A stretch of DNA of 64,000 nucleotides from Candidatus Poribacteria bacterium (GCA_965220325.1 OZ244821.1:1331820-1395819); one strand, 5' to 3'. Shown: positions 21,847-64,000, counted from the stretch's first letter. The notes: generated from the sequence alone by a model not told the origin. A program made the numbers and translations.

Positions 21847-21914
21847 TAATTTTCACGGCTGCGTTTTTCCCAAGTATAGTGTCTACCGCGGATGCACAAA
21901 ATTCGGAGGTGAAT

Positions 21915-25228: not shown

Positions 25229-25287
25229 CTTTTCCTCCTCTACTTTCTTGTGTGCCAAACGGTTCAGCTTGGCGCATCACTTCATGT

Positions 25288-26060: not shown

Positions 26061-26115
26061 AACCCCGTCTGTAAAGCTTATTATGTCAGGATTCATAAAA
26101 AAATGCGTAAGTCCT
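26061..26115 (+). repeat. 55-nt intergenic repeat, copy 2
   Basis: AACCCCGTCTG ... AAAAATGCGTAAGTCCT, lying 77 nt upstream of the 26192 start. Confidence 0.6.
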
Positions 26116-26191: not shown

Positions 26192-29100
26192 ATGATGAAA
26201 TCGCTATTTGGAAATGGAAAAAGCATTGTATCTATTTTAGCGATCCTTATATTCGTTTTAGGTATCGATGTGACGGGTTATGCGTTACCTGTCAGTCAAC
26301 GTACGCCACAGGTGCGGGATGCTATCGTTGCTGCAGTGCCCGGTGTGAATAATGCCAATAATGTGACCACAGCGCATCTTGCGGCAATTACATATTTGGA
26401 TCTATCAGGCCCATACCAGGGGCGTAACATCTCACTGAAAGCCGGAGATCTCGATGGACTCACCGTACTGACATCTCTCACATTGCGCAAGAACGGTTTG
26501 ACTTCATTGCCATCTGGCATATTTGACGACCTAACTACCCTGACAGACCTCGACTTGACCGCTAACGAGTTGACTTCATTGCCATCTGGCATATTTGAAA
26601 ATCTCACCACACTGACACATCTCAACTTGGGTAGTAACGATTTGACCGCATTGCCCTCCAATATATTTGACAACCTTATCAAACTAACACATCTCTACAT
26701 AGATCATAACGATTTGACCTCAATACCAGCAGGGATTTTTGACAATCTTACCACACTGACACATTTCAGTTTGCATGATAACGGCATAACCTCATTGCCA
26801 GCCGATATATTTAAAAATCTCACCAAACTGCTAATATTTAGCTTGCGTAGCAATAAAATCGATGATGTCTCTGAACTTGAAAGTTTGACTTCGCTAACAA
26901 CGTTATATATCGATCATAATCCGATTTCAGATTATGGACCGCTCCGTAGACTCAAAGCAGCGATTGAGGCGATTGAAGATCATCCGGGTTTAACCTTAGA
27001 TATTACAATTCCTCCTGAGGCTACTAACACTGCCCCTGTATTCACAGACGGCACCAGCACAACGCGCACCATCGCAGAGAACACGGCATCGGGTGAACAC
27101 ATCGGCACGGCTATAACTGCTACTGATGCAGACAATGATACCTTAACCTACACCCTCAGTGGCACGGATGCCACAGCGTTCGAGATTGATGCGACAACCG
27201 GACAACTAAAAACCAAGGCAGTACTCGACTACGAAACCAAGGCCATCTATACAGTAACTGTTACTGTCTCTGATGGTAGTTTGACAGATACGATCACTGT
27301 TACAATCAACATCACCAATATAAATGAATTGTCCACAACTACAGCAAGTTGTAAAGTTGGTGATGTCCTTAAGCCCGGTCAAAGCTGCACTTACCCCGGC
27401 ACGGATGCGGTATTTTCTGTGCTTGGTAATGGGACAGCACAATGGCATATCCCGAATTTGCCAGCCTGGCTTGAATGGATTAACCAAACACCTGTTAGCC
27501 GTTCACTGCGTGTCTCTACGACTGTCAACGGGCAGGCGTATCACTTCGTTGCTGAACAGGTCGGCACCTCTTGGGAAATCAAGGAGATTGGTGACGACAA
27601 AAGCGATCCCCAACCTGAGACACCTGAAGTTCCTGAGCCCCCTATAGTAACTGAGAAATCGATAGAGAGCGATTATGATTATATAGAAGGCCCCTGGCTA
27701 TGGATGATTGCACCGGGTGGAGATATAGACACGGATAATCTCTCCGAAGCAAGTGAAGGCGTGATTACGGAACCGCAAATCGCTCAAAATGGTGTTAATG
27801 AGGGGGATCACTTCGACACACTGCAATGGACAAGCGGACGTTTACTGCCTACCACCGTTTGCGGTATTTTCTTATGTTCGTCAGATAATGTCATCAACGT
27901 GGTCAGAGAGATTGGACTCACGAATAGTCGTCAACTCAGTCAATATTCTGCTTATGCTTTGATTAACATTTCCTCGCCACGCGATCAAAACGATGTTTTG
28001 ATGGGTGTTGGGAGTGATGATTCTATCAAAGTTTGGCTCAACGGTTCAGTTGTTTACAAAAATGATGTTACAAGAAGAACAAAAGGCATACAAAACCATT
28101 TTCCTGTAAATCTGAATGCTGGTAACAATCTACTGTTAATTAAAGTTTGCAATCACGGTACGCTGATCTCCAATAACGATTGGGGCATGTTTTTTAAGAT
28201 ATATCTTGACACGCAGGATTACGCTCTATCTATTCCAATGGGAGATGGCAATAATTGGCAACCCGTAACACCTGAAGTACCTGAAACGCCAGAACAGCCA
28301 CAACAGCTCGGAAATACGGGTGGTACACCAACGCTTACCCCATCAACTGCAGCCCCATTGACTGAAGCCACACTCCACAGTAGCATTGTGACACTTACAC
28401 TCAGCGGTGGTACTTATGAGTCCTCCAGTTGGAGAATTAGAGAGGCAGTGACCGTTTCTGGTATTACCGGGGTGACTGTTGACACATTCGATGTGGATCG
28501 CGTGAACGATATTAAGATTACGGTTGAACTGACGTATGCCGGTAACATAAACTCCAACGGCACACTCACCTTCACCGTTGACTCGGATGGGATTAAAGAC
28601 TATGATGGAGCAGCACTTACCGCACAAATACAGGTTACTGCCAACACGGAATCCGTAGCTGCGTCAACTCCATCACCGTTGAAAGAGGCTACATTGGATG
28701 GCAGCGTTGTCACACTTACGCTCAGTGGTGCTAAATACGCAGAGTCTATCTGGGACATAAGAGAGGCGGTTTCAGTATCCGGTATTGATGGCGTAACAAT
28801 CCCTTGGCACCAACCCCGGCGAAAAAGTGATACTCAAATTACGATTGAACTGGAATTTGATGGAGACATGACCACAGATGGTACGCTCACATTCACTGTC
28901 GGGGCAGACGCTATTGCAGGCTATAATGCTGCACTTACCGCACAAGTGACTGTTACTGCTGACAGAGAGAACATCCTTTTGGCAAACTTCCCGAACCCGT
29001 TCAATCCTGAGACGTGGATACCCTATCAACTCGCAAAACCCGCTGACGTTACGCTGACTATCTACGCCGTGAATGGACAGGTAGTTCGGACGTTGGCACT

Positions 29101-29257
29101 CGGACATCAACCCGTGGGTGTGTATCAGACCCGCAGCCGTGCGGCGTATTGGGATGGTAAAAACGCATTCGGCGAACCCGTGGCGAGTGGTGTCTATTTT
29201 TACACACTCACAGCAGGCGACTTCACCGCAACCCGCAAGCTGTTAATACGGAAGTAA
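26192..29257 (+). CDS. Secreted surface protein: LRR, cadherin, jelly roll, 2 novel ~100-aa modules, T9SS-type C-terminal domain
   Basis: Signal peptide. About 7 LRRs of 24 residues (LTxLxLxxNxLTSLPSGIFDNLTT). One cadherin repeat (APVFTDG...DADND...LDYE). A jelly roll (GSDDSIKVWLNGSVVY...NAGNNLLLIKV). Two PLTEATL... modules. Tail: NFPNPFNPETWIPY...SGVYFYTLTAGDFTATRKLLIRK. Confidence 0.8.
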   Translation: MMKSLFGNGKSIVSILAILIFVLGIDVTGYALPVSQRTPQVRDAIVAAVPGVNNANNVTTAHLAAITYLDLSGPYQGRNISLKAGDLDGLTVLTSLTLRKNGLTSLPSGIFDDLTTLTDLDLTANELTSLPSGIFENLTTLTHLNLGSNDLTALPSNIFDNLIKLTHLYIDHNDLTSIPAGIFDNLTTLTHFSLHDNGITSLPADIFKNLTKLLIFSLRSNKIDDVSELESLTSLTTLYIDHNPISDYGPLRRLKAAIEAIEDHPGLTLDITIPPEATNTAPVFTDGTSTTRTIAENTASGEHIGTAITATDADNDTLTYTLSGTDATAFEIDATTGQLKTKAVLDYETKAIYTVTVTVSDGSLTDTITVTINITNINELSTTTASCKVGDVLKPGQSCTYPGTDAVFSVLGNGTAQWHIPNLPAWLEWINQTPVSRSLRVSTTVNGQAYHFVAEQVGTSWEIKEIGDDKSDPQPETPEVPEPPIVTEKSIESDYDYIEGPWLWMIAPGGDIDTDNLSEASEGVITEPQIAQNGVNEGDHFDTLQWTSGRLLPTTVCGIFLCSSDNVINVVREIGLTNSRQLSQYSAYALINISSPRDQNDVLMGVGSDDSIKVWLNGSVVYKNDVTRRTKGIQNHFPVNLNAGNNLLLIKVCNHGTLISNNDWGMFFKIYLDTQDYALSIPMGDGNNWQPVTPEVPETPEQPQQLGNTGGTPTLTPSTAAPLTEATLHSSIVTLTLSGGTYESSSWRIREAVTVSGITGVTVDTFDVDRVNDIKITVELTYAGNINSNGTLTFTVDSDGIKDYDGAALTAQIQVTANTESVAASTPSPLKEATLDGSVVTLTLSGAKYAESIWDIREAVSVSGIDGVTIPWHQPRRKSDTQITIELEFDGDMTTDGTLTFTVGADAIAGYNAALTAQVTVTADRENILLANFPNPFNPETWIPYQLAKPADVTLTIYAVNGQVVRTLALGHQPVGVYQTRSRAAYWDGKNAFGEPVASGVYFYTLTAGDFTATRKLLIRK

Positions 29258-29295
29258 GTTTCTATCAAACCTAAAAAAATAAGGTGCGCGAACCT

Positions 29296-31050
29296 ATGAA
29301 CCGAAAAATCGTAGTCTCAATTTTAGCAACTGTTTTCCTCGGTACATTGCTTACCATTATCGGCTGTGGCTTGTTTGACAACAACAGCCAGCCAGAAATT
29401 GAACCAATAACTGATAAAACGCTTGATGTAGGAGATGAAACAACAGTGGATATCAACATCACCGATGCTGATGTTGACGACACACATATCATCAATGCGT
29501 TTTCTGACAACATAAACGTTGCTGCCGTTTCAGTAAACGATACATCTATTACCATCACAGGTAAAGCAGCGGGGGTGACAGCCATCACAGTTACCGTCAT
29601 AGACGACAGTGATCAGGAAAACAACACCTCAATACCCGTAACGTTTCAGGTTATTGTCAATGAACCCCCACCTATAGAAATAGATCCACTGGAAGATGAC
29701 AACTATGATCATATAGAAGGCCCCTGGCTCTGGATGATTACACCCGGTGGACATATAGATGTTGATAATCTCTCTAAAACAAGTGACGGTGTTATTACGG
29801 AGACACAGATTGCTCGAAAAGGTGTAAATGAAGGGAATCACTTTGATACGCTGCAATGGACAAGTGGACGTTTACTTCCTACCACCGTTTGCGGTATTTT
29901 CTTATGTTCCTCAGATAATGTCATCAACGTCGTTAGAGAGATTGGACTTACCAATAGCTATAATCTCAGTCAATATTCTGCTTATGCGTTGATTAACATT
30001 TTCTCTCCACATGATCAAAACGATGTTTTGATGGGCGTAGGGAGCGATGATTCTATCAAAGTTTGGTTTAATGGCGCAGTTGTTTACAAAAACAATGCTG
30101 ACAGAAGAACAACAGGGATACAAAACCGGTTCCATGTAGATCTGAATGCTGGTAACAATCTACTGCTCATTAAAGTCAGCAACTTCTTTGGGGATTGGGG
30201 TATGTTTTTTAAAATCTACCTTGACCCAGAAGCGTATACTATATCTCTTCCAGTAGGACATAACAATAACTGGCGACCTGTGACACCTGAACCTCCACAA
30301 CAACCAGAAGAACCACAGCAACCAGAAGAACCACAGCAACCAGAAGAACCACAGCAACCAGAAGAACCACAGCAACCAGAAGAACCACAGCAACCAGAAG
30401 AATCTTTTCCAATTACCATCAGTGAAATCATGTATGGTTCTGAAGCGCGGTTTTCGCCACCCCAATGGATAGAATTATCCAATACTGGAACAGATCCAGT
30501 GAATATGACTGGATGGAAACTAACGATTCAGAACGTGGACTCGGCGGATTTAACCGGACCCGTGAATGGGACAATTGTCTTTAGAGACGAATTTTGGGGG
30601 GAAGCCCCTAAGATTTGGCCAAACGAAACCCTCCTCATAGTAGCAGATGAAGACGATACTAACTCCGGTGGATTCTTGGAGGAGCAAATATTCGCCCTTA
30701 TGTGGCGAGGCGGATTAAAAATAGGCTTATGGGATACATTTTTGAGTGCAGAGGGATTCTACATAAAGTTGACCGATAAAAATGGCAACTTGGTAGATGA
30801 AGTCGGAAACTACGACGGAAGTAAGACGCTTTGGGATTTACCTTACGGCTTTAACAGAGGTAGAATTTGGGAAGGCAATCGGACATCACTCCTTCGCCGT
30901 TATGCCAATAGTGTTGCCCTTGACGGCAGAAAAAAAGAGAGTTGGGTGTCCGCAGTTGACGCGAATCTCACCGAGGACCAAAAAACCTATTATGGAGATA
31001 AGAACGATGTCAGTTCACCCGGCATCCTCGGCCCAGAAACAGGTGAATAA
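29296..31050 (+). CDS. Lipoprotein: Ig-like domain, jelly roll, (PEEPQQ)6 linker, lamin-tail domain
   Basis: ATG at 29296 with a lipobox-like LLTIIGCG. The jelly roll is near-identical to that of the upstream gene. LTD pattern: ITISEIMYG...PQWIELSNTGTDPVNMTGWKL. No T9SS-type tail. Confidence 0.75.
   Translation: MNRKIVVSILATVFLGTLLTIIGCGLFDNNSQPEIEPITDKTLDVGDETTVDINITDADVDDTHIINAFSDNINVAAVSVNDTSITITGKAAGVTAITVTVIDDSDQENNTSIPVTFQVIVNEPPPIEIDPLEDDNYDHIEGPWLWMITPGGHIDVDNLSKTSDGVITETQIARKGVNEGNHFDTLQWTSGRLLPTTVCGIFLCSSDNVINVVREIGLTNSYNLSQYSAYALINIFSPHDQNDVLMGVGSDDSIKVWFNGAVVYKNNADRRTTGIQNRFHVDLNAGNNLLLIKVSNFFGDWGMFFKIYLDPEAYTISLPVGHNNNWRPVTPEPPQQPEEPQQPEEPQQPEEPQQPEEPQQPEEPQQPEESFPITISEIMYGSEARFSPPQWIELSNTGTDPVNMTGWKLTIQNVDSADLTGPVNGTIVFRDEFWGEAPKIWPNETLLIVADEDDTNSGGFLEEQIFALMWRGGLKIGLWDTFLSAEGFYIKLTDKNGNLVDEVGNYDGSKTLWDLPYGFNRGRIWEGNRTSLLRRYANSVALDGRKKESWVSAVDANLTEDQKTYYGDKNDVSSPGILGPETGE
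30295..30402 (+). repeat. 18-bp tandem repeat x6 encoding (PQQPEE)n
   Basis: CCACAGCAACCAGAAGAA occurs five times perfectly, plus one variant first unit (CCACAACAACCAGAAGAA). Confidence 0.95.
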
Positions 31051-31374
31051 TTCTATAACGCGAGTCCCGTATTTGTACGATGGTTTGGACAATTTGTATC
31101 CTATCAACCCAACCTACAGGATCAATGATAGATGATTGCTACAAGAAATTGTCCAAAGTTTAGTATCGTGTATAGAACCGGAGTTATTTTTGATTGTTTA
31201 GGTTCACGATAGCAAGTATAATATTGTGTTCAATGGGCATATTGAGATCAACAAATATCACACTGTTTTTTCTTCCTTTGTCTATAAGGTGGACAATCCA
31301 CTTGTATGACGTGAAGGAACAAATGTATCCCGCAAAGGCAATCGGGCAATAGAAAAGAATGAAAAGGAGACATT

Positions 31375-34300
31375 ATGAAAATGCTAATCCTGAACCGAAA
31401 AATTATGCTGTCAATCGTCACAGCAATGTTATTAATATACGGAATACAAGGCACAAACTACGCGCAGGCGCAAAACAACGCCCATGAATTGACCCCCGTC
31501 GGCGACCGGACGCAGCAGATCCGCGATATGATTGTTGCCCTGGTGCCGGGCGTAGATTCTGCCAACGATGTGACCGCCGCACATCTCGCTTTAATTACCC
31601 GTCTTAATCTGAGTGATCAGAAAATTACGGCACTGAAATCCGGCGATTTTGACGGATTGTCGGCGTTGCGTTCTCTCTCCTTAGCGAAAAACGCGCTCAG
31701 CAGCCTACCTGCCGACATCTTTTCGGGACTCTCTGCTATGGACAGTCTTGACTTAGGGAGTAACGAACTCAGCAGCCTGCCAGCAGAAATCTTTTCGGGA
31801 CTCTCTGCCATGAATAGACTCAACTTGGCATACAACAACCTGGATAACTTATCAGCAAATACATTCTCCGAGATGTCTTCGTTGACTGGGCTGGACTTAG
31901 GTAATAACGAACTCAGCAGTCTGCCAGCTGGTCTATTTTCCGGACTCCCTTCACTGAATTGGCTCAGCTTGTCTTCCAATCAACTCAGCAGTCTACCTGA
32001 CGGTCTATTTTCCGGACTCCCTTCGTTAAATTCGCTTTACCTCAGTGACAACACCATCAACTTATCTATCACTGTGTCCCTGGAGAAGGTTAGCGGAAAC
32101 CAGTTCAAGGCAATCGCACCTACCGGCGCGCCCTTTAATATGGTGCTGCCGATTGCCGTTACGAATGGGAGCATTGCTGACGGGGTAACTACCATTACAA
32201 TTCCGGCTGGCAGCGCCCAAAGCGGACCCCTCACTGTGATTCCTATCCCCGGTACGACTGCCCATGTCACCGCAAATATTGGAACGTTGCCTGAGCTGCC
32301 GACAAGTCATTACGGTTATAGTCTTGTGAAACCGAGCAGCGATGATAACACCCTCAGTTTCGCTCTCGGTTTCCCCAAACCTACAGGCGATTCAAACGTG
32401 AACCATGCCCCGATTTTTACAGAGGGGAGCAGCACGACACGCTCTATAGCGGAGAACACGCCGGCTGGAAAAAACATCGGCAGCCCCGTCACCGCTACAG
32501 ATGAAGATGAAGATGTCCTGACCTATAGTCTCAGTGGGGCAGATGCAGTGTCCTTCAGCATCGTCAGCACCACAGGACAATTACAAACGCATGCACCGCT
32601 TGACTATGAAGAAAAGAACACCTATGCCGTTACTGTCACCGTCTCCGATGGCAGTGCCACTGACACCATCAGTGTCACGATTGATGTCACGGACGTAAAT
32701 GAGAACAATGCACCCGTTTTCGTAGAAGGTAGCAACACAACGCGATCCATAGCAGAAAACACGCCGGCTGGAACAAAAATCGGCAGCCCTGTTACAGCCA
32801 GAGATGCAGATGAAGATACTTTAACTTACACCCTCGGCGGCACAGATGCAGCATCCTTTGGTATCGTCAGCACAACCGGGCAACTGCAAACACGCGACCC
32901 ACTTGACTATGAACAGAAGAACACTTACGCTGTCACCGTCCATGTTTCCGATGGCAATGGCGGCACAGATACCATTGCTGTTGCTATCAACGTCACTGAT
33001 GTAAATGAGAACAACGCACCCGTCTTCGTAGAAGGTAACAGCACAACGCGAGCCGTAGCGGAGAACACGCCGGCTGGAAAAAACATCGGCAGCCCCGTCA
33101 CCGCTACAGACGAAGATGAGGATGTCTTAACCTACAGTCTCAGTGGCAAGGATGCAGCATCCTTTGGTATCGTCAGCACGACCGGGCAACTGCAAACACG
33201 GGATCCGCTCGACTATGAACAAAAGAATACCTACGCTGTGACGGTCACCGTCTCTGATGGCAATGGCGGAACAGATACTATTGCCGTTGCTATCAACGTC
33301 ACGGATGTAAATGAGAACAACGCACCCGTTTTCGTAGAAGGTAGCAGCACAACGCGAGCCGTAGCAGAAAACACGCCTGCCGGAACAAACATCGGCAGCC
33401 CCGTCACGGCTACAGACGAAGATGAAGATACTTTAACTTACGCCCTCGGTGGCACGGATGCAGTGGACTTCGGTATCGTCAGTGCCACTGGACAGTTAAG
33501 AACTCGTGCACCCCTCGACTATGAACAGAAGAACGTCTATTCGGTGGCGGTTATTGTCTCCGATGGCAATGGTGGAACGGATACCATCGGTGTCGCTATC
33601 AACGTCACGGACATAGATGAAACACCCACGGCACATGCGCCGGTTTTCGTAGAGGGGAGTGCTACGGAACGCTCTATTCCTGAGAACACACCCGCTGGAA
33701 AAAACATTGGCGGGCCAGTCATCGCTACGGATGAGGATGAAGAAGATGTCTTGACTTACAGCCTTTCAGGTGTAGACGCACCCTCCTTTGGCATCGTCAG
33801 CAACATTGGACAGTTGCAGACGCGCGCACCGCTTGATTATGAACAGAAGAATGCCTATTCGGTAGTAGTTACCGTCTCCGATGGCACACTCACGGATACC
33901 ATCAGTGTTGCTATCAATGTCACGGATGTCGCGGAGAACCGCGCACCTGTGTTCGTTGAAGGGAGTAGCACGACACGCACTATCGCAGAGAACACACCCG
34001 CTGGGGAAAACATCGGCAGTCCTGTTGCAGCTAGAGATGCAGATGAAGATACTTTAACTTATACCCTCGGCGGCACGGATGCAGCGTCCTTTGGCATCGT
34101 CAGCACAACCGGGCAGCTGCAAACACGGGACCCGCTCGACTATGAAGAAGAGAACACCTATGCGGTGACCGTCATCGCCTCTGATGGCAACGGTGGGATA
34201 GACACCATTGCCGTTGCTATCAACGTCACTGATGTAAATGAGAACAGGGCACCTGTGTTTGTGGCCGGTCTCACGAAGCGTTCAGTGTCAGAAAACACAC

Positions 34301-36228: not shown

Positions 36229-36426
36229 CATGAGAAGGACAGAACTTATGTAAACAGCTGTGCTTGGATATTTCTGCGGACTTCTTCAAGGGCACCGCCG
36301 TAGGGGTTGGTCACCTAACCCCTACGAAATGTCCACATATTTTTAGATTTTGCTATATATCAAGCTTATGTTTATATAAGTTCAGCCTTTATCAAGAAGA
36401 TATATTGTCCAATACAAAGGGTTAGA

Positions 36427-39400: not shown

Positions 39401-40332
39401 GACAGGAATCGATCGTCGCATCAACTGAGGCTCCCTTGACAGAAACAACACTAAATGGTAGTATCGTTACATTCACGCTCAACGGTGCCATTTACGAGCA
39501 ATCTACCTTTGATCTCAGGGACGCTGTTGAGGTATCTGGCATTGAGGGGGTCACTTTTCATTGGTTTGATTTGGACCGCGTCAGTGATACGGAACTAACG
39601 GTTGCATTGACATTCAGAGGCAACATTGACACGGATACCATCCTCACTTTTACAGTGGGCGCGGATGCTATTGCCGAATACGAAGGGCCCGCACGCATCG
39701 CACAAATAATTGTCGCTGGTAGCAAAGAGTCGGTTGCTATTTCAACAGAAGCACCGTTGGTGGAAGCGACGCTGGACGGTAGCCTCGTCACATTGACACT
39801 CAGCGGACGCATTTATGAACGATCCTATTTCAGACTCAGAGAAGCTGTCTTAGTCTCCGGTATTGACGGCGTGACCGTAGACGATATAGATCGTATCAGC
39901 GACGCAAAGATTACCCTTGAACTGGCATTCAATGGGGATTTTGATACCGACACCACACTCACCTTTACTGTCGGTGCAGATGCATTATTGAGATATAGCG
40001 GACCCGCCCTCACAGCGCAACTCCCTGTCATCGCAGATAGAGAGAACGCACTTTTGACAAACTTCCCGAATCCGTTCAACCCGGAAACGTGGATACCCTA
40101 TCAACTCGCAAAACCCGCAGATGTTAGCATCTCCATCCATGCTATAGACGGCAAGTTGGTACGCGCTTTGGATTTAGGACATCAACCCGCAGGGAGGTAT
40201 CACAACCGTAGCCGTGCAGCGTATTGGGACAGTAAAAACGCATTCGGCGAACCTGTCGCAAGCGGCGTATATTTCTATACCATCACAGCAGGCGACTTCA
40301 CCGCTACACGCAAAATGTTAATACGCAAATAG
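36427..40332 (+). CDS. Surface protein (1301 aa): metzincin-like Zn-protease head, 2 cadherin repeats, 6 novel ~100-aa modules, T9SS-type C-terminal domain
   Basis: GTG start. Signal-like N-terminus. Zinc motif VLHEIAHGLGF (37066..37080 encodes HEIAH) with a downstream SLMTPY Met-turn-like motif. Cadherin units (APVFTDG..., PNFVDG...). Six PLTEATLNGS... modules. Tail: NFPNPFNPETWIPY...YFYTITAGDFTATRKMLIRK. Confidence 0.8.
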   Translation: MAVQIIKLTISFLICMLLGLTPRAMSRDAVPGQRSGTLEDPSTVNPTPRDKTLKRMSVLYGTNENANTSIPPPLMQQLYPNGDFLATEHSQFIVTYDGFTDEAMAAFQYAVDIWNSFIRSPVPIRIDASFTDLGGFDGTAIILGGARPADWQSPRSLGLWFPEALADKRADRDIAAGEPDIITRFNSHEDANWYFGTDGNTPAGKQDFVSTVLHEIAHGLGFTSFATVRTFSASVGQGKLRDGDPRLPQIYDFFVENGSGKTIMSLTDPSVDLENQLTSNDLFWNGKRGVAANSGILPHLYTPSSWAEGSSYVHLNEMTFPVGDANSLMTPYLDNQEAIHDPGPIALGMLEDMGWIINKAPVFTDGSSTDRTVVNGSVGRPVAATDANNDPLTYYLNRNPEAAAFDIDNITGQLKTKVAHTYNKASYTVTVAVSDGTLMDEITVTIHITSTATETPPNSRPNFVDGNHTRRTIAENTAKGVDIGKPVAATDADNDALTYTLSGPDAAAFDIDSTTGQLKTSAELDYETKNTYTVTVTVSDSDLAITITVIIIIINLDDQKSPTLMLTSQPLTEATLNGSVVTLTLNNRIYENWLSDPVTVSGIPGVTVRPFDVLRLSDTGLSVQLTFYGTSLNTDTTLTLTVKADAIENYEGPALIATARVTANAESVAASTITPLTEATLNGSVVTLTLNGGIYESQYTVGNSVTVSGISGVTVNVYNVERLSGTQVNVELIFDGTDFDTDATLTFTVGTNAIVEYKGTALTAQLRVSAVIEEIPIVTAYATHPLTEATLDERIVTLTLSSGVYTHSSADISSAVQVSGVAGVTFRRSDVVRVSDTKVTVQLTFKGPDFDTDAMLTFTVGSDAIVNYHGSARITRLPIIAVVEERPTITAYATHPLTEATLNGSVIRLTLNNGTYVRSNFDIEDAVTVSGIAGVTVGFFGVERVSNTIITFELEFNGNLDTNTTLTFIVGADAIAEYEGPARIAQLPVTGGQESIVASTEAPLTETTLNGSIVTFTLNGAIYEQSTFDLRDAVEVSGIEGVTFHWFDLDRVSDTELTVALTFRGNIDTDTILTFTVGADAIAEYEGPARIAQIIVAGSKESVAISTEAPLVEATLDGSLVTLTLSGRIYERSYFRLREAVLVSGIDGVTVDDIDRISDAKITLELAFNGDFDTDTTLTFTVGADALLRYSGPALTAQLPVIADRENALLTNFPNPFNPETWIPYQLAKPADVSISIHAIDGKLVRALDLGHQPAGRYHNRSRAAYWDSKNAFGEPVASGVYFYTITAGDFTATRKMLIRK
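38127..40035 (+). repeat. Array of 6 copies of the unrecognised ~100-aa module (coding)
   Basis: Each unit reads ...PLTEATL(N/D)GS(V/I)VTLTL(N/S)G..Y.......(A)V.VSGI.GVT......R(V/L)S.T...V.L.F.G...TD..LTFTVG.DAI..Y.G.A....L.V.A. Confidence 0.85.
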
Positions 40333-40388
40333 TAGTCAGTAGAAAAACCGTACTGAAAACTGACATCCATTATAATAAGGAATTCATT

Positions 40389-42722
40389 ATGAAAACCCTA
40401 ATCATGAAGCAGAAATACCTTGTGTCCATATTAGTTACCATCTTCACAATCTTGGGAATACAAAGCAGTTACGCACAGACGATAACCGCTTCAACGCCAC
40501 ACCCCTTGACAGAGGCAAACCTACACGAAAGTGTAGTCACCCTCACGCTCAGCGGGCGTAGTTTTACTGGGTGGTCATCAGACATCGGAGAGGCAATGAC
40601 GATATCCGGCATTGACGGTGTCACTTTTGATAATTATTGGGATGTGGATCGTATAAGCGACACAAAAGTGACCGTAGAACTCACATTCTCTGGCAATATT
40701 GATGCAGACACACCGCTTGTCTTTACCGTAGGAGCAGGGGGAATAGCTAACTATGATGGTGAGGCACTCACCGCACAACTCCCTGTGACTGCTGTTGAAG
40801 AGTCGTTAGTCCCAACAACAGAAGCACCTTTGACAGAGACAACGCTTAGCGGCAGCCTTGTGACACTCACACTCAGTGGCCGTAGTTTCGCGAGTTGGGA
40901 ATCTTCCATTCAATCGGCTCTGACAATATCCGGTGCTGAGGGTGTCACTTTTGATTCGTGGGACGTGAATCGTATAAGCGACACAAAAGTGACCGTAGAA
41001 CTCACATTCTCTGGCAATATTGATGCAGACACGCCGCTTATCTTTACGGTAGGAGCAGGGGGAATAGCTGACTATGATGGTGATGCACTCACCGCACAAA
41101 TACCTGTCACAGCTGTAGCGGAGACACTTGTCGCAACAACAGAAACGCCTCTGACAGAGACAACGCTTAGCGGAAGTGTCGTAACCCTTACACTCAGCGG
41201 GCGGCATTTTACAGATGAATGGGACATTGAGCGTGCGTTGACTATATCCGGTATTGAAGGCGTGACCATACACGATGTTGATCGCAACAGTAATATGGAG
41301 GCAACTGTTGATATAAGGTTCTCCGGCAACATAGACATAGATGCGACACTCATTATCACCGTGGGGGCGGGCGCAATAGTGAACTACAATGAGGCGTTCA
41401 CTGTTCAAGTTCCTGTCACAGCTGTAGAGGAGACGTTAATCGCAACTACGACGGCACCTCTAACAGAGGCAACGCTGAGTAGTAGTGTTGTGACACTCAC
41501 ACTCAACGGGCGTGTTTTCAACACCTCTGGCACTGTGTCTGTATCTGGCATTGATGGTGTAACCATAAGTAGGATCAGCCGCGTCAGTAACACACAGATG
41601 ACGGTGTCACTTACTTTCTCCGGGAATATTGACGCGGATAGCACGCTTACAATCACCGTAAGTGCAGCCCGTATAGCCGGCTACAATGATGCATTCACTG
41701 TCCAACTCCCTGTCACAGCTGTTGAAGAGTCGTTAGTCGCAACAATAGAGGCACCCTTGACAGAGACAACACTTAGCGGCAGCGTTGTGAAACTCACGCT
41801 CAGTGGACGGTCTTTTGTTGCTCACTCTTCCAACATTGCACGTGCTTCGTCAATATCTGGCATTGAAGGCGTAACAGGTAGCTTCAGACGCGTAAGTAAT
41901 ACAGAGGCTAAAATTACATTGGGTTTCTCCGAGAACATAGACGCAGATAGTACACTCACAATCACCGTAGGTGCGGATGCGATAGTAGGCTACAACGAGG
42001 CGTTCACTGTCCAGTTACCTGTTACGGCAGTAGTGGAGACGCTTGTCGCAACAACAGAAGCACCTTTGACAGAGACAACACTTAGCGGAAGTGTAGTAAC
42101 GCTTACGCTCAGCGGGCGGTCTTTCAATGATAGATACGATGTCTATAATGCTCTGACGGTCTCCGGCATTGAAGGCGCATCATTTTACAAGTTTGGTGTA
42201 GATCGCATAAGTAATACGAAGGTAACCGTGCCACTGACATTCTTTGGTAACATAGACGCAGATAGTACACTCACTCTCACCGTGGGAGCAAATGCTATCG
42301 TAGGCTACAACGAGGCGTTCACTCTTCAACTCCCTGTCACAGCAGTAGCGGAGTCATTAGTCGCAACTACGGAAGCACCTTTGACAGAGACAACACTTAG
42401 CGGCAGCGTTGTAACACTCACACTCAACGGGCGGTCTTTCGATTCGTCACGTCATGACATTGAGCGTGCGCTAACTATTTCCGGTATTGAAGGTGTCACG
42501 GTTTATAGGGCAAACCGCGTGAGCGATACCAAAGTGACAGTTGTGTTGATTTCTACCGAAGATTTTGATACAGATAGTGTGCTGACTCTCACCGTCGGTG
42601 CGGATGCTATTGTAGGCTACAATCAAGAATTTTCCTTTGAATTCCCTGTGACTGGTGTAGAAGAGTCGCTTATTGCAACAACAGAAACCCCTTTGACAGA
42701 AGCGAACCTTACGGGTGTGTAA
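40389..42722 (+). CDS. 5' part of an IS-disrupted surface-protein gene (signal peptide plus 7.2 copies of the ~100-aa module)
   Basis: The reading frame runs into the left IS end and stops at a TAA inside the inverted repeat (42720..42722). As it stands, the product lacks the cohesin/dockerin region and the T9SS-type tail. Confidence 0.8.
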   Translation: MKTLIMKQKYLVSILVTIFTILGIQSSYAQTITASTPHPLTEANLHESVVTLTLSGRSFTGWSSDIGEAMTISGIDGVTFDNYWDVDRISDTKVTVELTFSGNIDADTPLVFTVGAGGIANYDGEALTAQLPVTAVEESLVPTTEAPLTETTLSGSLVTLTLSGRSFASWESSIQSALTISGAEGVTFDSWDVNRISDTKVTVELTFSGNIDADTPLIFTVGAGGIADYDGDALTAQIPVTAVAETLVATTETPLTETTLSGSVVTLTLSGRHFTDEWDIERALTISGIEGVTIHDVDRNSNMEATVDIRFSGNIDIDATLIITVGAGAIVNYNEAFTVQVPVTAVEETLIATTTAPLTEATLSSSVVTLTLNGRVFNTSGTVSVSGIDGVTISRISRVSNTQMTVSLTFSGNIDADSTLTITVSAARIAGYNDAFTVQLPVTAVEESLVATIEAPLTETTLSGSVVKLTLSGRSFVAHSSNIARASSISGIEGVTGSFRRVSNTEAKITLGFSENIDADSTLTITVGADAIVGYNEAFTVQLPVTAVVETLVATTEAPLTETTLSGSVVTLTLSGRSFNDRYDVYNALTVSGIEGASFYKFGVDRISNTKVTVPLTFFGNIDADSTLTLTVGANAIVGYNEAFTLQLPVTAVAESLVATTEAPLTETTLSGSVVTLTLNGRSFDSSRHDIERALTISGIEGVTVYRANRVSDTKVTVVLISTEDFDTDSVLTLTVGADAIVGYNQEFSFEFPVTGVEESLIATTETPLTEANLTGV

Positions 42723-44152
42723 AGTTTTTGGCAGCGTATTTTTGAAGATATGAGTTGAAGTTTGTCAATAAAAATGGTATCCTCTCGCAAAGATGATAAA
42801 GTTGAGTATCGTAAGGAGAAGATACCATGTCTAACATTGTAGCAGAAATTCAGCAAGAAATGGAAGATATTTTTCAAGAGTTAAGTGATACCGAGGACGT
42901 TTCGGTTTCGACCGTAGAGGCGCGTGTGTCTAAGGCTGCCGATTCTTGGGCACAAAGGTTATCCGAGTCGGTTCTATCAGAGACAGCGAGTTGTAAGGAG
43001 ACATCGCCTGTGAGTGTTGCGTGTCCATCTTGTCAAGGGCATAGTCATAGGTATCGGTGCCGGGCGCGCAACTTCACGACGGTTTGTGGTGTTCTGCGTA
43101 TCTCAAGATGGGCGTATAAATGTCAATGTGGTTATATTCATGTGCCTTGGGAGGCTAAGCAAGGGTTGAAAGGACGGTATACACAGGCGGTTGCCAAAGC
43201 GATGATGCGTGTCGCTGCACAGTTGAACTATCGTGCGGCGGCGGCGGAGTTGAAGCATCAAGGCATTGAAGTGAGTCATACGACGCTGCATCAGAAGGTT
43301 CAGGAGTGGTCAGCAGGCGAAGTTATCTCTGATTATGTGGCATCGGAATGCTTGGAGTCTGATGCGCGTTGGTATGTCAGTTTTGATGGGTGCCACACGA
43401 ACTCACCTGTCGGTTGGCAGGAGGTGAAAGTCGGGTGCATCGGTAAAGATTATCCGCACCAGAACGCGACCTCGGTGATGAAAATCCGTCCACCGAGTCT
43501 CCGTTATATCGCTTCTCGGAGTTGTGCGTCGGATTTCGGAGAGCAGTTGTCTGCGTTAGCGACACAGACCGGTATTTATCAAGACGAAAAAACGATAGAC
43601 ACCGAAGAAGTCGTTGTTATCGGTGATGGGGCAGTGTGGATATGGAACTTGGCAGATGAACACTTCCCGGGTGCCACCGAAATCGTTGACTTTATGCATG
43701 CCAAGAAACATTTACATGATGTTGCCAAACTTGCTTTCGGCGAAGATGACTCAGACCGTGTAGAGACTTGGGTGCGGACAACCGAGACCCCCCTTTACAA
43801 TGGAGAGACATCGCAAGTCGTCGCACGCATACGAGAGTTGGCAACAGAAAACCCAGCGATAGGAGATGTCCTCGAAAAAGAAGTCCGCTATTTTCAAAAA
43901 AATGCTCATCGCATGCAATATCGGACGTTCAACGAAAAAGGCTATCAGATCGGCAGTGGTGTCATTGAGAGTGCTTGTAAACACGTCGTCGCTGAACGCT
44001 GTAAACAAGCAGGCATGCGATGGAGCACACCCGGGATAAATGCCATACTCTTTTGGCGATGTTTGCTAAAGAATGACGCAGCAGATACTTATTGGGATAC
44101 ACAAACTATGCCAAACGCAGCATAAATACGCTGCCAAAAACTTTACACACCC
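42713..44152 (+). mobile_element. Insertion sequence, 1440 bp, single DDE-type transposase (ISKra4/ISLre2-like)
   Basis: Perfect 29-bp terminal inverted repeats: GGGTGTGTAAAGTTTTTGGCAGCGTATTT at 42713..42741, and its reverse complement at 44124..44152. Flanked by a 9-bp direct repeat GAACCTTAC (42704..42712 and 44153..44161). Confidence 0.9.
42827..44125 (+). CDS. IS transposase (432 aa; ISKra4/ISLre2-like, family assignment tentative)
   Basis: N-terminal Cys-rich segment (CPSCQGHSHRYRC...CQCG). Motifs VIGDGAVWIWN, DFMHAKKHL and YQIGSGVIESACKHVV..RCKQAGMRWS. SD AAGGAG. The stop lies inside the right inverted repeat. Confidence 0.8.
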   Translation: MSNIVAEIQQEMEDIFQELSDTEDVSVSTVEARVSKAADSWAQRLSESVLSETASCKETSPVSVACPSCQGHSHRYRCRARNFTTVCGVLRISRWAYKCQCGYIHVPWEAKQGLKGRYTQAVAKAMMRVAAQLNYRAAAAELKHQGIEVSHTTLHQKVQEWSAGEVISDYVASECLESDARWYVSFDGCHTNSPVGWQEVKVGCIGKDYPHQNATSVMKIRPPSLRYIASRSCASDFGEQLSALATQTGIYQDEKTIDTEEVVVIGDGAVWIWNLADEHFPGATEIVDFMHAKKHLHDVAKLAFGEDDSDRVETWVRTTETPLYNGETSQVVARIRELATENPAIGDVLEKEVRYFQKNAHRMQYRTFNEKGYQIGSGVIESACKHVVAERCKQAGMRWSTPGINAILFWRCLLKNDAADTYWDTQTMPNAA

Positions 44153-46115
44153 GAACCTTACTGGCAGCGTGGTGACACTCACGCTCAGCGGGCGGCATTT
44201 TACAGACGAATGGGACATTGAGCGTGCTTTGACGTTCTCTGGTATTGAGGGTGTTTCTATTCCAAGCTACGACGGTGTAGAACGTGTAAGTAACACGGAA
44301 GCAAAGGTTACCTTGTCATACTCTGGCAATATAGACACAGATAGCACGTTTACTTTGGAAGTAGGCGCGGGTGCTATAACCAGCTACAATGAAGGATTTA
44401 CCTTTGAATTTCCCGTCACTGCTGTTGAAGAGAGGTTGGAAATCTCAACAGAATCTCCTTTGACAGAAGCAGCACTGAATGGTGGCACTATCACACTCAA
44501 GCTCATCGGACGTCAATTCACATGGTGGCGACAGGATATTGAAGAGGCAGTGACATTAACTGGCATTGAAGGTCTGAGCATCGGCAGATTCAGTGTTGAT
44601 CGTGAAACTGGAGATGTGGTGCTAATTCCGCTTGTCTTTAATGGCAATATAGACACAGATGCTACACTTACCATTGAGGTCGGAGCAGGTGCAATCGCAG
44701 GCTATAACGAAGCATTCACCACACAAATACCTGTTACGTCGGTAGAGGAGTCACTGGATATATCATCTAAGTTTAACTTGAATGAGGCAACGCTTAACGG
44801 AACTGAAGTTATATTAAAACTGAATGGTCGTTCTTATGTGTCGTCATTCTCTGACATCCGCAATGAAGTGTCAGTTACTGGTATTGAAGGTGTCACTTTC
44901 GATGATTTCTTTGATGTGGACCGTGTCAATGACAATGAGGTGGTGGTTGAACTGAGTTTTGACGGAACAGATTTTGATATTGACAGCACGCTCACCTTTA
45001 CTGTCGGTGCAGAGGCAATTTCTGGTTACGGCGAAGCATTGACTGCCCAACTTCCGGTTACTGCGATAAAGCAATCCAACGGGACAATCAGCATCTCGCC
45101 GAACCCGGTCGTATCTCCACCACTTTTTGAACAGTTGACTGTCAGTCTAAATATTACAAGCGGGGAGAATGTTGCTGGGTTTCAAGCTATCGTTTGGTAT
45201 GATGATGACACACTCAGATATGTGGAAAGTGCTAAAGGCAATTATCTGCCAGCGGATGCGTTCTTTGTGGCCCCAACTGTTCCAGAGTATGAATATTATC
45301 CGTATCCTTATGTGCCAATTGCTACAACCGCTCTTGACGGCGTAAGTAATGGTAACGGCACACTCGCCACCGTCACCTTTGAAGTTTATGATGATATTAA
45401 AGAATCTGAGATAACCTTGACGAATGTCTACATTGTAGACCGTGAGGGTATTCGGTGGGAAGTTGAGATTGAAGGCACTGATGTGACTGAACCGGCGCAC
45501 GATGTCGTTGGAGATATTAACCGTGATGGTCTGGTGAACATCCGCGATTTAGTGCTTGTGAGTTGGCGTTTTGGTTTACGTGACGAAAATCGCGCGGATA
45601 TTAACGGAGACGGCATTGTTGATATAGCTGACCTTGTGCTCGTTGCAAATGCGTTGGGTGCGGATGCAGCTGCGCCATCCTTAAATCCACAGATATTGGA
45701 ACAGCTCACCGCCGCAGATGTGAAAGAATGGCTAACCCAAGCGCAGAAAATCACACTGACCGACCCCGATTATAAGCGCGGAATTAGTGTGCTGGAGCAA
45801 CTCCATAAGGCGCTGACCCCTAAAACGACAGCACTCTTGCCAAACTTCCCTAATCCGTTCAACCCGGAAACGTGGATACCCTACCACTTATCAAAAGATG
45901 CGGATGTCACACTGCACATCTATGCTGTGAACGGCATATTGGTGCGAACGCTGGTACTTGGGCATCAAGCTGCAGGTCGGTATCAAAGTCGTTCCCGTGC
46001 GGCATATTGGGATGGCAGAAACGAACGCGGTGAACCCGTCGCAAGCGGTGTTTACTTCTACACACTCACGGCAGGCGATTTCACTGCTACACGTAAGATG
46101 TTGATACGCAAGTAG
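44153..46115 (+). pseudogene. 3' part of the IS-disrupted gene: 2.8 modules, cohesin-like domain, dockerin-like pair, T9SS-type C-terminal domain
   Basis: Removing 42713..44161 rejoins ...PLTEANLT|GSVVTLTLSGRHF... in frame, giving a ~1425-aa protein with 10 modules. The 27 N-terminal codons of the 44073 track ORF are IS sequence. Confidence 0.8.
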
Positions 46116-47472: not shown

Positions 47473-47583
47473 TATGAATACCTCCATATCTATAGTTACT
47501 CGATTTGTTCCATTTCGCAAGTACACTGTAGGGCATCCGTGCCTTTTTGTCAAACAAGTTTTGATTCTTTAATTCTGCTTTTC

Positions 47584-63887: not shown

Positions 63888-64000
63888 GATTAACACCTCA
63901 GTACTGATCCATTTCATTACACGGTGGTTTCCAACGTGTTCAAACCCCTTCGGATGCTTCTAAACCAGCTGGAACTGACCAAAAACCATCGTGAAACGTA

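What the first reader, a model, noticed from the sequence alone, without database searches (positions are those of the whole stretch)
26192..46115. 20-kb same-strand island of five giant mosaic surface proteins with T9SS-type sorting tails
Five consecutive plus-strand genes encode proteins of 1021, 584, 1617, 1301 and (restored) ~1425 aa. They shuffle a shared domain set.
- Animal-type 24-residue LRRs.
- Cadherin repeats in 1, 8 and 2 copies.
- A galactose-binding-like jelly roll and lamin-tail domains.
- A metzincin head and a cohesin/dockerin region.
- An unrecognised ~100-aa module.

Four of the five end in a near-identical ~90-aa tail, N(F/Y)PNPFNPETWIPY...AYWDG.N..GE.VASGVYFYTLTAGDF.ATRK(M/L)LI(R/V)K. 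This fits the Por_Secre_tail (T9SS type A sorting domain) pattern.

The tails and several internal cassettes are also similar at the nucleotide level, so the island is full of direct repeats that can recombine. The combination reads like a dedicated, rapidly reshuffling adhesin or host-interaction locus rather than ordinary cell-envelope genes.
Basis: partly seen in the sequence, partly recalled or inferred. Interest (0 to 1): 0.75.

Follow-up and report, generated by a model that had tools for sequence, protein, structure and literature searches.

The report
Sponge-symbiont surface adhesin gene cluster
This is a real cluster of five giant, modular cell-surface proteins in a sponge-symbiont bacterium (Candidatus Poribacteria), carrying type IX-style sorting tails; it is a new example of a known kind of surface-protein locus, not a new kind of system.

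Summary
Five consecutive plus-strand genes (26192-46115) encode 1021, 588/584, 1617, 1301 and 1425 aa (restored) proteins. Four end in a tail that passes the TIGR04183 (T9SS type A) cut-off.

The fifth gene is not frameshifted. A 1440-bp ISKra4-family insertion sequence with a 9-bp target duplication splits it.

The host is a Candidatus Poribacteria genome. A PorV-family gene lies in the window. In relatives a C25/PorU-like gene sits directly upstream of PorV. The motor and translocon genes could not be tested.

The "unrecognised module" is an unannotated Ig-like repeat of about 105 aa, present in 18 copies. The jelly roll has a GH2-N/PA14-like lectin fold.

"Rapid reshuffling through near-identical DNA repeats" is not supported. 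Tails are 61-78% identical at DNA level, dS is saturated and dN/dS is about 0.1.

The g3-g4 pair is syntenic in about 25 Poribacteria genomes. What varies is:
- repeat number: 4-19 cadherins, 6-12 Ig modules in g4 orthologues, 9-17 in g5 homologues;
- the peripheral genes: 2, 3 or 5 members in close relatives;
- the chromosomal site.

Tails on poribacterial eukaryote-like proteins were reported in 2014. Verdict: new member of a known kind, moderate interest.

The parts
26192..29257 (+). g1, 1021 aa. Signal peptide; 24-residue LRRs (about aa 69-260); 1 cadherin (aa 282-384); unassigned segment (aa 385-490); lectin-like jelly roll (aa 495-705, nt 27674-28306); 2 Ig-like stalk modules (aa 722-929); T9SS type A tail (aa 933-1021, nt 28988-29254).
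29284..31050 (+). g2, 588 aa (584 from the first ATG). Lipoprotein-type signal with lipobox IIGC (Cys28); unassigned beta-rich segment; jelly roll (aa 141-346), 78% identical to that of g1; PQQPEE x6 linker (nt 30295-30402); lamin-tail domain (aa 376-508). No sorting tail.
   Evidence: The lipobox was read from the sequence, not predicted by a tool.
31375..36228 (+). g3, 1617 aa. Signal peptide; LRRs (aa 69-230); unassigned segment (aa 230-345); 8 cadherin repeats (aa 346-1162, 306-nt period); lamin-tail domain (aa 1193-1331); dockerin with two DxNxDG calcium loops (aa 1418-1458); conserved linker; T9SS type A tail (aa 1529-1617).
36427..40332 (+). g4, 1301 aa. Signal peptide; zinc-metalloprotease-like head with HEIAHGLGF at aa 214-222 (nt 37066-37092); 2 cadherins (aa 361-563); 6 Ig-like stalk modules (aa 570-1209); T9SS type A tail (aa 1213-1301).
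40389..42712 (+). g5, 5' part: signal peptide and Ig-like modules 1-7, plus the start of module 8. It is cut by the insertion sequence; the ORF runs 10 nt into the element and stops at 42722.
42713..44152 (+). ISKra4-family insertion sequence, 1440 bp. Terminal inverted repeats of about 31-33 nt (97% complementary). Transposase ORF 42827-44125 (432 aa). Flanked by the 9-bp direct repeat GAACCTTAC at 42704-42712 and 44153-44161.
   Evidence: NF033572 scores 233 bits against a cut-off of 205. Inverted repeats. Sequence.
44153..46115 (+). g5, 3' part: rest of module 8, then modules 9-10; cohesin-like domain (nt 45078-45506); dockerin (nt 45510-45656); conserved linker; T9SS type A tail (nt 45846-46112). 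Joined to the 5' part it gives 1425 aa with 10 Ig-like modules.
62859..63917 (-). PorV/PorQ-family outer-membrane beta-barrel, the likely shuttle for tail-bearing cargo. In relatives a C25/PorU-like gene lies directly upstream, which here would fall just beyond the window end.
24332..25258 (-). dprA, the left conserved flank of the cluster.
46447..47553 (-). Amidohydrolase gene, the right flank. It is adjacent to dprA in many relatives and absent from this interval in L219 and L220.

Best explanation
The region is a chromosomal cluster in a Candidatus Poribacteria (marine-sponge symbiont) genome. It encodes modular cell-surface proteins built as head, stalk and anchor.

Proposed steps:
1. Each protein has an N-terminal Sec signal (read from the sequence).
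2. Four end in a T9SS type A C-terminal domain (shown by model scores).
3. After export to the periplasm, the tail is most likely recognised and carried by the PorV-family barrel encoded in the window. It is then removed by a PorU-like C25 sortase, and the mature C-terminus is fixed to the outer-membrane surface (inferred by analogy with Bacteroidota).
4. The stalk is a tandem array of a so far unannotated Ig-like module of about 105 aa, plus cadherin repeats.
5. The distal heads are binding or enzymatic: 24-residue LRRs, cadherin arrays, a GH2-N/PA14-like lectin jelly roll, and a zinc-metalloprotease-like domain.
6. A cohesin-like domain in g5 and dockerins in g3 and g5 could link the proteins to each other (inferred).
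7. g2 would be held by a lipid anchor instead of a tail (inferred from the lipobox).

The probable role is adhesion to, or recognition by, the sponge matrix or cells (inferred from domain types and from the literature on symbiont eukaryote-like proteins).

The locus is old. The g3-g4 pair is conserved across the phylum. It evolves mainly by gain and loss of tandem modules, turnover of peripheral genes and relocation. In this genome g5 has been inactivated by an insertion sequence.
For: - Tails pass TIGR04183 in four of five proteins and sit exactly at the C-termini.
- The tail keeps NPFNPETW, GVYFYT and a terminal K-x-x-x-x-K. My own knowledge, not tested here, is that these correspond to the conserved motifs of known CTDs.
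- A PorV-family gene in the window is above cut-off. It is conserved in 53 Poribacteria loci.
- A homologous ORF of about 2,000-2,170 aa carrying the same tail lies directly upstream of PorV in about 50 of those loci.
- The one tested (L088) has Peptidase_C25 at 283 bits, Propeptide_C25, and PorU NF033707 at E 9e-117.
- Ig-like module: 18 copies. The model has pLDDT 91.6 and is a beta sandwich. Its best PDB match is the Ig-like domain of chitinase ChiW (TM 0.63).
- In other proteins the module sits before the same tail, together with cadherins and LRRs.
- Jelly roll: pLDDT 86.8. Matches are GH2 N-terminal sugar-binding domains and PA14 lectin domains of adhesins.
- Both dockerins have duplicated DxNxDG loops.
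- All 13 weak PDB profile hits of the g5 region are cohesins.
- Conservation and variation.
- Insertion sequence.
Against: - The T9SS motor and translocon (PorK/L/M/N, Sov/SprA) were not seen and could not be searched.
- Kamke et al. 2014 (PMC3909097) found no Por structural genes in partial single-cell genomes.
- The PorU-like protein scores 391 bits, just under the 420-bit equivalog cut-off, and is about twice the length of the model.
- Pfam's Por_Secre_tail model is below its gathering score for all four tails; FlgD_ig scores higher.
- Signal peptides and the lipobox were read by eye.
- No expression, localisation or binding data exist.
- The cohesin is below Pfam's cut-off and the metalloprotease head is below NCBIfam's.
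Confidence: 0.7

Rival explanations
1. The tails are not type IX signals in this phylum. They are ordinary Ig-like (FlgD_ig-type) domains, and the proteins reach the surface or the medium by another route, or by a reduced PorU/PorV-only sorting step without the canonical T9SS.
For: - FlgD_ig scores above its Pfam cut-off while Por_Secre_tail does not.
- No porK/L/M/N or sov was seen.
- Kamke 2014 reported no Por structural genes.
- Reviews place the T9SS in the Bacteroidota/FCB group.
- NCBIfam holds separate 'PorU2/PorV2 putative type IX sorting' models, and these also hit weakly.
Against: - TIGR04183 is above cut-off in all four tails.
- The PorU-like/PorV pair is conserved, and PorU-like itself carries the tail, as PorU does in Bacteroidota.
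- The tails are under strong purifying selection at the extreme C-terminus.
Confidence: 0.15
2. The cluster is mainly a nutritional, cellulosome-like machine. Cohesin-dockerin links assemble lectin and protease modules on the surface to break down sponge matrix or captured particles, rather than to adhere or signal.
For: - Dockerins in g3 and g5 and a cohesin-like domain in g5.
- Jelly-roll homologues elsewhere are joined to dockerin or cohesin.
- The g4 head resembles a metalloprotease.
- A glycosidase gene lies at 21804-24245.
Against: - Only one possible enzyme among five proteins.
- No glycoside hydrolase domains inside the cluster.
- LRR and cadherin arrays are binding modules, not catalytic ones.
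- The head motif is untested for activity.
Confidence: 0.1
3. One reading: a recently assembled, fast-recombining island kept in flux by near-identical DNA repeats, possibly acquired horizontally.
For: - Membership differs even among close relatives: 2 genes in L219, 3 in L220, 5 here.
- Module numbers differ in steps of about 105 aa among more than 100 g4 orthologues.
- Within-gene exact repeats reach 55-64 nt.
- The interval next to dprA carries toxin-antitoxin-like, restriction-type and TnpB-like genes in other genomes, judged by eye from ORF translations.
Against: - Similarity between genes is 61-80% in DNA, with exact matches of at most 32 nt.
- dS is saturated.
- g3-g4 order and domain order are conserved across the phylum.
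- No tRNA or integrase lies at the borders, and GC (0.473) is like the flanks.
Confidence: 0.05

Closest known systems
T9SS type A CTD cargo proteins of Bacteroidota, for example Tannerella forsythia BspA (LRR surface protein) and the Porphyromonas gingivalis gingipains
   Same: N-terminal signal, multi-domain body and a C-terminal sorting domain of about 90 aa matching TIGR04183. A PorV-family barrel and a C25/PorU-like peptidase are encoded in the lineage. LRR heads as in BspA; the LRR_5 'BspA type' model also hits.
   Different: The phylum is Poribacteria, outside the group where the T9SS has been characterised. The core motor and translocon are not shown. The PorU-like protein is about 2,080 aa, twice the usual size. 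The cargo combines cadherin, LTD and cohesin/dockerin domains with a module family that has no annotation.
Poribacterial eukaryote-like repeat proteins with TIGR04183 domains (Kamke et al. 2014, PMC3909097)
   Same: Same phylum and the same observation that LRR, cadherin and WD40 proteins carry the Por C-terminal sorting domain.
   Different: That paper worked on partial single-cell genomes, found no Por structural genes, and did not describe this locus, its conserved g3-g4 core, the Ig-like module or the PorU-like/PorV pair.
Giant repetitive bacterial adhesins with Ig-like extender regions and a PA14 lectin domain, for example Marinomonas primoryensis MpIBP
   Same: A long tandem array of Ig-like modules acting as a stalk, with a PA14/galactose-binding-like lectin module. 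PA14 domains of MpIBP are among the fold matches.
   Different: MpIBP is a type I secretion (RTX) substrate anchored by its N-terminus. Here the anchor is a C-terminal T9SS-type tail. The module sequences are unrelated.
Cellulosomal scaffoldins and dockerin-bearing subunits of Clostridia
   Same: Type I dockerin with duplicated calcium loops, and a cohesin-like domain whose only PDB hits are cohesins.
   Different: No carbohydrate-active enzymes are attached. The cohesin is below the Pfam cut-off. The host is a Gram-negative symbiont and the anchor is a T9SS-type tail rather than SLH or sortase.
NF038122 'LGF' family metalloproteases (HExxHxLGF motif)
   Same: The g4 head has HEIAHGLGF and matches NF038122 (E 3e-13). 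It has relatives of 38-51% identity in Bacteroidota, Chloroflexota and cyanobacteria.
   Different: The score of 50 bits is below the 80-bit cut-off. The third zinc ligand and the Met-turn are not verified. There is no PDB sequence match.

Membership tests
T9SS type A sorting domain (TIGR04183) cargo | C-terminal domain scoring at or above the curated cut-off of the TIGR04183 model | tested here: met
   36.1, 29.6, 28.4 and 28.1 bits against a cut-off of 23 for g1, g3, g4 and g5. g2 has none. Pfam PF18962 is below its cut-off (17-26 against 27).
T9SS type A sorting domain (TIGR04183) cargo | The domain lies at the extreme C-terminus, and the protein has an N-terminal Sec signal | tested here: met
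   Each tail ends at the stop codon. Hydrophobic N-terminal signals were read from the sequence; no signal-peptide predictor was available.
T9SS type A sorting domain (TIGR04183) cargo | The genome encodes attachment-complex components PorV and PorU | tested here: met
   PorV/PorQ family: NF033709 at 107.9 bits against 90, in the window. PorU-like in relatives, directly upstream of PorV: Peptidase_C25 at 283 bits against 23; NF033707 at 391 against 420, just under the cut-off. PorU of this genome lies beyond the window.
T9SS type A sorting domain (TIGR04183) cargo | The genome encodes the core machinery PorK/L/M/N and the Sov/SprA translocon | not testable with these tools
   Only 64 kb of this genome is held and no query sequences for these proteins were available. 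A scan of 90 ORF families from fetched loci returned a truncated list with none visible.
Cadherin repeat (PF00028) | Pfam model above the gathering score; tandem repeats of about 100 aa | tested here: met
   g1 50.8 bits (1 repeat), g3 320.7 (8), g4 60.2 (2), against a cut-off of 28.8. Boundaries.
Leucine-rich repeat, 24-residue 'typical' class (LRR_8) | Pfam LRR_8 above the gathering score; 24-residue period with LxxLxLxxNxL | tested here: met
   99.4 and 114.7 bits against 27. Spacing of 24 residues. 72-nt tandem period.
Cohesin-dockerin system | Dockerin_1 above cut-off, with duplicated calcium-binding loops | tested here: met
   28.2 and 29.2 bits against 22.9. Two DxNxDG loops in each.
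Cohesin-dockerin system | Cohesin domain above cut-off | tested here: inconclusive
   22.4 bits against 24.1. A profile of seven orthologous segments hits only cohesins in the PDB, best E 0.0029.
Metzincin / NF038122 metalloprotease | HExxHxxG zinc motif, and a family model above cut-off | tested here: inconclusive
   HEIAHGLGF is present. NF038122 scores 50.4 bits against 80. No PDB sequence match. No structure model was made.
ISKra4-family insertion sequence | Transposase above the family cut-off, terminal inverted repeats, target-site duplication | tested here: met
   NF033572 at 233 bits against 205. 33-nt inverted repeats at 97%. 9-bp direct repeat; removal restores the reading frame.
Horizontally acquired genomic island | Border tRNA or integrase, flanking repeats, deviating base composition | tested here: not met
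   No tRNA in the window. No integrase. The left and right junctions share no repeat. GC is 0.473 against 0.48-0.49 in the flanks. The lower tetranucleotide correlation is explained by the repeats.

The most novel reading that the evidence does not exclude
Poribacteria, a phylum outside the Bacteroidota/FCB group, use a type IX-like sorting step built around an oversized PorU-like sortase and PorV, possibly without the canonical motor. With it they fix a coat of animal-like LRR and cadherin adhesins to the cell surface. These adhesins are cross-linked by cohesin-dockerin pairs and raised on a new Ig-like stalk module. The length of the stalks, which varies from strain to strain, would tune recognition by the sponge host.
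Probability: 0.2. Interest if true: 0.7.

Novelty: new member of a known kind. Interest (0 to 1): 0.42.

Why it matters
Poribacteria are among the most abundant sponge symbionts and cannot be cultured. How they present their many animal-like proteins to the host has been open since 2014, when the sorting tails were noted but no secretion genes were found.

- **Concrete candidates.** This locus gives tail-bearing LRR/cadherin proteins, a PorV gene next to them, and a conserved PorU-like/PorV pair in the phylum.
- **A marker locus.** The g3-g4 pair is found across the phylum, and its repeat numbers differ between strains.
- **Domains to define.** The Ig-like stalk module has about 730 sequence clusters in public data and no annotation. 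It and the lectin-like module could be described as new domain families.

Tried and rejected
- **Exact-sequence look-ups** of g1, the transposase and the amidohydrolase found nothing on record.
A single protein was used instead.
- **Metagenome scans** for the uninterrupted g5 site and for the insertion-sequence end found nothing. Whether the insertion is polymorphic is therefore unknown. Only one weak relative of the element was found in the fetched loci.
- **Search for T9SS core genes:** 858 ORFs from the fetched Poribacteria loci were clustered, and 90 representative families were scanned against NCBIfam. The output lists only the 25 most frequent families, so this was uninformative.
- **PDB sequence searches** of the Ig-like module, the g4 head and two unassigned neighbours (14085-17537, 52196-54148) gave no useful hit.
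- **Rfam and tRNA scans** were empty.
- **Promoter and terminator scan:** promoter-like sites were below, and terminator-like sites 1.8 sd above, the shuffled controls; neither was informative.
- **Tetranucleotide comparison:** the island correlates less with the flanks (0.61-0.65) than the flanks do with each other (0.88). I rejected this as evidence of transfer because the island is repeat-rich with skewed amino-acid content and has the same GC.
- **An earlier conclusion, overturned:** I first concluded that the whole 21 kb was a lineage-specific insertion between dprA and the amidohydrolase. The g4-head scan and two look-ups showed the g3-g4 core is phylum-wide, and that it sits next to dprA in the closest genomes.
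- **Assembly artefact** was rejected. The repeats are too diverged to collapse. The g5-amidohydrolase junction is echoed in an independent assembly (L001).

Full report
**1. What is there**

The interval holds five consecutive plus-strand reading frames:
- g1, 26192-29257, 1021 aa.
- g2, 29284-31050, 588 aa from GTG or 584 aa from the first ATG.
- g3, 31375-36228, 1617 aa.
- g4, 36427-40332, 1301 aa.
- g5, in two pieces at 40389-42722 and 44073-46115, with a 432-aa ORF (42827-44125) between them.

That middle ORF is an ISKra4-family transposase (NF033572, 233 bits against a cut-off of 205). The element spans 42713-44152 (1440 bp). It has 33-nt terminal inverted repeats that are 97% complementary. 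It is flanked by the 9-bp direct repeat GAACCTTAC. Removing one repeat copy and the element restores an in-frame gene of 1425 aa. The gene is therefore broken by an insertion sequence, not by a frameshift, and the insertion lies at the start of the eighth repeat module.

**2. Domains**

- LRR_8 in g1 and g3. The period is 24 residues with consensus LxxLxLxxNxLxxLPxGIFxxLxx.
- Cadherin in 1, 8 and 2 copies in g1, g3 and g4.
- Lamin-tail domain in g2 and g3.
- Dockerin_1 in g3 and g5, each with two DxNxDG loops.
- A cohesin-like segment in g5 scores 22.4 bits against a cut-off of 24.1. A profile of seven orthologous segments hits only cohesins in the PDB, best E 0.0029.
- The g4 head has HEIAHGLGF (aa 214-222) and matches the NF038122 'LGF' metalloprotease model at E 3e-13, but below its cut-off. 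It has no PDB sequence match.

**3. The two unannotated modules**

*The 'unrecognised ~100-aa module'.* It occurs 18 times: 2 in g1, 6 in g4 and 10 in g5.
- It has no Pfam, NCBIfam or PDB sequence match.
- AlphaFold2 on the 17-copy alignment gives a confident beta sandwich (pLDDT 91.6).
- The best structural neighbour is the Ig-like domain of the cell-surface chitinase ChiW (TM 0.63, 19% identity, E 7e-3).
- A profile search of 1.84 billion representative proteins finds 730 clusters. Some proteins carry up to 25 copies and reach 6,594 aa.
- The members examined combine the module with cadherins and LRRs and end in the same tail. None of the 120 best hits listed carries an informative name (three are 'hypothetical protein') and one carries EF-hand Pfam domains.
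- I read it as a stalk or spacer module.

*The 'IEGPWLWMI' module* (g1 aa 495-705; g2 aa 141-346; 78% identical to each other).
- It has 28 homologues, which are joined to LRR, dockerin or cohesin domains.
- Its model (pLDDT 86.8) matches GH2 N-terminal sugar-binding domains and PA14 lectin domains of adhesins at E about 1e-4.

**4. The tails**

A six-frame scan finds exactly four NPFNPETW motifs, each 90 codons before the stop of g1, g3, g4 and g5.
- TIGR04183 scores are 36.1, 29.6, 28.4 and 28.1 against a cut-off of 23.
- Pfam's Por_Secre_tail is below its cut-off, while FlgD_ig is above it for three tails.
- g2 has no tail but has a lipoprotein-type signal ending in IIGC (read by eye).
- All five proteins have hydrophobic N-terminal signals.

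**5. Organism and sorting machinery**

The flanking amidohydrolase is 97% identical to a Candidatus Poribacteria MAG, and dozens of Poribacteria genomes share the neighbourhood.

The window itself encodes a PorV/PorQ-family barrel at 62859-63917 on the minus strand (NF033709, 107.9 bits against 90). It has a weak direct match to Flavobacterium PorV, PDB 6H3I. The gene is found in 53 Poribacteria loci.

In about 50 of those loci, an ORF of about 2,000-2,170 aa lies directly upstream. These ORFs are homologous to each other and carry the same tail. The one analysed (L088 3603-9848) has:
- Peptidase_C25 at 283 bits;
- Propeptide_C25;
- the PorU model NF033707 at E 9e-117 (391 bits against a cut-off of 420).

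In this genome that gene would begin just past base 64000.

Kamke et al. 2014 had noted TIGR04183 domains on poribacterial eukaryote-like proteins. They stated that no Por structural genes were found and that the pathway 'remains to be revealed' (PMC3909097). I found no later paper in the library that links Poribacteria with the T9SS machinery.

The motor and translocon genes could not be tested here.

**6. Is it an island, and does it reshuffle?**

My first comparison suggested a 21-kb insertion. In many relatives dprA and the amidohydrolase are 0.1-0.3 kb apart, or separated by 1-6.5 kb of unrelated small genes. Several of these look, from their translations, like toxin-antitoxin, restriction-type or TnpB genes.

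A scan with the g4 head changed this picture.
- 31 Poribacteria loci carry an orthologue (49-77% identity).
- In about 25 of them a g3-like gene lies directly upstream of the g4-like gene.
- Domain order is kept: LRR, cadherins, LTD, dockerin, tail for g3-like; head, cadherins, Ig modules, tail for g4-like.
- Most of these clusters sit in a different conserved context, c9-c10-c5-[2 to 6 or more tail genes]-c2-c0-c1-c4-c8. None of that context is in the window.

Two closer genomes, found through the homologue search, share the window's context.
- L219: glycosidase, dprA, g3-like, g4-like, beta-propeller, 650-aa gene. Two members and no amidohydrolase.
- L220: g3-like, g4-like, a 533-aa dockerin protein, then the beta-propeller. 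Three members.
- The window has five members plus the amidohydrolase.
- In another close MAG, g2-like, g3-like and g4-like are colinear at 73-77% identity (L139). In the same MAG the gene next to the amidohydrolase is a different 868-aa protein that shares only the dockerin-linker-tail cassette with g5 (L001).

Repeat number varies.
- Cadherins in g3 orthologues: 4-19.
- Ig modules in g4 orthologues: 6-12. More than 100 orthologues have lengths that step by about 105 aa: about 1300, 1414, 1522, 1628, 1730 and 1835 aa.
- Ig modules in g5 homologues: 9-17.

So the locus has an old, stable core. Its periphery, its chromosomal site and its repeat numbers are variable.

**7. DNA-level repeats**

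All-against-all blastn finds 44 repeat pairs in the window, and 42 of them lie inside the island. Identities are only 64-80%.
- The best pair between genes is g1 27674-28305 against g2 29704-30320, 80% over 632 nt.
- The tails are 61-78% identical in DNA and 57-82% in protein.
- Synonymous divergence is at or beyond saturation (dS >= 1) and dN/dS is 0.07-0.14.
- The longest exact match between different genes is 32 nt. Within genes it is 55-64 nt.
- The only near-perfect repeat is an 18-nt x 6 PQQPEE tract in g2.

These are old paralogues under purifying selection. Recombination between genes through them is unlikely to be frequent. Slippage or unequal exchange inside the tandem arrays fits the observed stepwise length variation.

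There is no tRNA, integrase or shared junction repeat at the borders, and GC is like the flanks.

**8. How it most likely works**

*Shown:*
- the domain content;
- tails that pass the T9SS type A model;
- a PorV-family gene in the window;
- the conserved PorU-like/PorV pair in the phylum;
- the insertion sequence in g5;
- conservation of g3-g4 and variation in repeat number.

*Inferred:*
- Sec export, then tail-dependent passage and PorV-mediated delivery.
- Tail removal and surface attachment by the PorU-like sortase.
- Ig-like and cadherin arrays act as calcium-stiffened stalks that hold the LRR, cadherin, lectin and protease heads away from the cell.
- Cohesin-dockerin links form between members.
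- g2 is lipid-anchored.
- The role is binding sponge matrix or cells.

g5 as it stands cannot be sorted. The 5' part lacks a tail and the 3' part lacks a signal peptide.

**9. Comparison and verdict**

The nearest known things are listed below.
- T9SS type A cargo such as the LRR protein BspA of Tannerella.
- The poribacterial eukaryote-like proteins of Kamke 2014.
- Giant Ig-repeat adhesins with PA14 lectin domains.
- Cellulosomal cohesin-dockerin assemblies.

Membership in 'T9SS type A cargo' is met for the tail and for PorV/PorU. It is untested for the core machinery.

I rate this a new member of a known kind. It adds an unannotated stalk module, a lectin-like module, and a phylum-wide marker locus. 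Interest is moderate. It would rise if Poribacteria prove to run a reduced type IX-like sorting system.

Noticed in passing
window 57407-60448 and 60570-62855 (+): Two paralogous WD40 beta-propeller proteins of 1013 and 761 aa (71% DNA identity over 2 kb). Their orthologues in L219 and L220 carry N-terminal ECF sigma-70 regions 2 and 4, which is an unusual sigma-factor/WD40 fusion.
   Followed up: partly
window 47671-52146 and 52196-54148 (+): A 1491-aa Reg_prop beta-propeller protein with weak PorZ-like hits (NF052228, 73 bits against 260), followed by a 650-aa protein with no family. The pair is conserved next to this locus in all relatives examined.
   Followed up: partly
window 31180-31374: The leader upstream of g3 is 85-91% identical in DNA to the leader of g3 orthologues in several genomes, which is more conserved than the coding sequence. 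It contains two hairpins (GGTGGA-CAA-TCCAC and CCCGC-AAAGGCAA-xCGGG), a CAATCGAAA motif and an AAAAGGAG ribosome-binding site. No Rfam match.
   Followed up: partly
window 25929-26061: A short dispersed repeat about 220 nt upstream of g1. A 45-nt core recurs, in either orientation, just upstream of g4-like and other tail-bearing genes in other Poribacteria (L146 9845-9889 at 98%; also L140, L143, L137). It could be a shared regulatory site or a small mobile repeat.
   Followed up: partly
window 46257-46396: A 140-nt segment between g5 and the amidohydrolase is 84% identical to a segment on the opposite side of the amidohydrolase in L006 (9777-9912). This suggests a small element that moves or is duplicated around this gene.
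   Followed up: no
window 54336-57105 (+): A BlaI-type repressor and a BlaR1/M56-type sensor. The sensor's C-terminal part carries a lamin-tail domain (36.4 bits against 34.3). The pair is absent from this position in L219.
   Followed up: no
window 12919-14013 (-): A 364-aa protein with LDL-receptor class B (YWTD) repeats (87 bits). This is another animal-like repeat protein in the same window.
   Followed up: no
window 30295-30402: An 18-nt unit repeated 6 times at 98% identity, encoding a PQQPEE linker in g2. It is the only near-perfect repeat in the island and a likely site of in-frame length change.
   Followed up: no
g3 aa 1464-1528; g5 (restored numbering) aa 1274-1336; L001 11538-12170: A dockerin, 60-aa linker and tail cassette is shared by g3, g5 and many otherwise unrelated tail-bearing genes of Poribacteria. 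In L001 it ends an 868-aa protein with a different head, at the same position next to the amidohydrolase. There the last 228 nt are 81% identical to g5.
   Followed up: partly
window 19398-19787 and 20061-20585 (-): Two small paralogous ORFs (71% DNA identity over 520 nt) with no family assigned. L219 has one copy.
   Followed up: no
window 14085-17537 (-): A 1150-aa ORF with no Pfam, NCBIfam or PDB match.
   Followed up: partly
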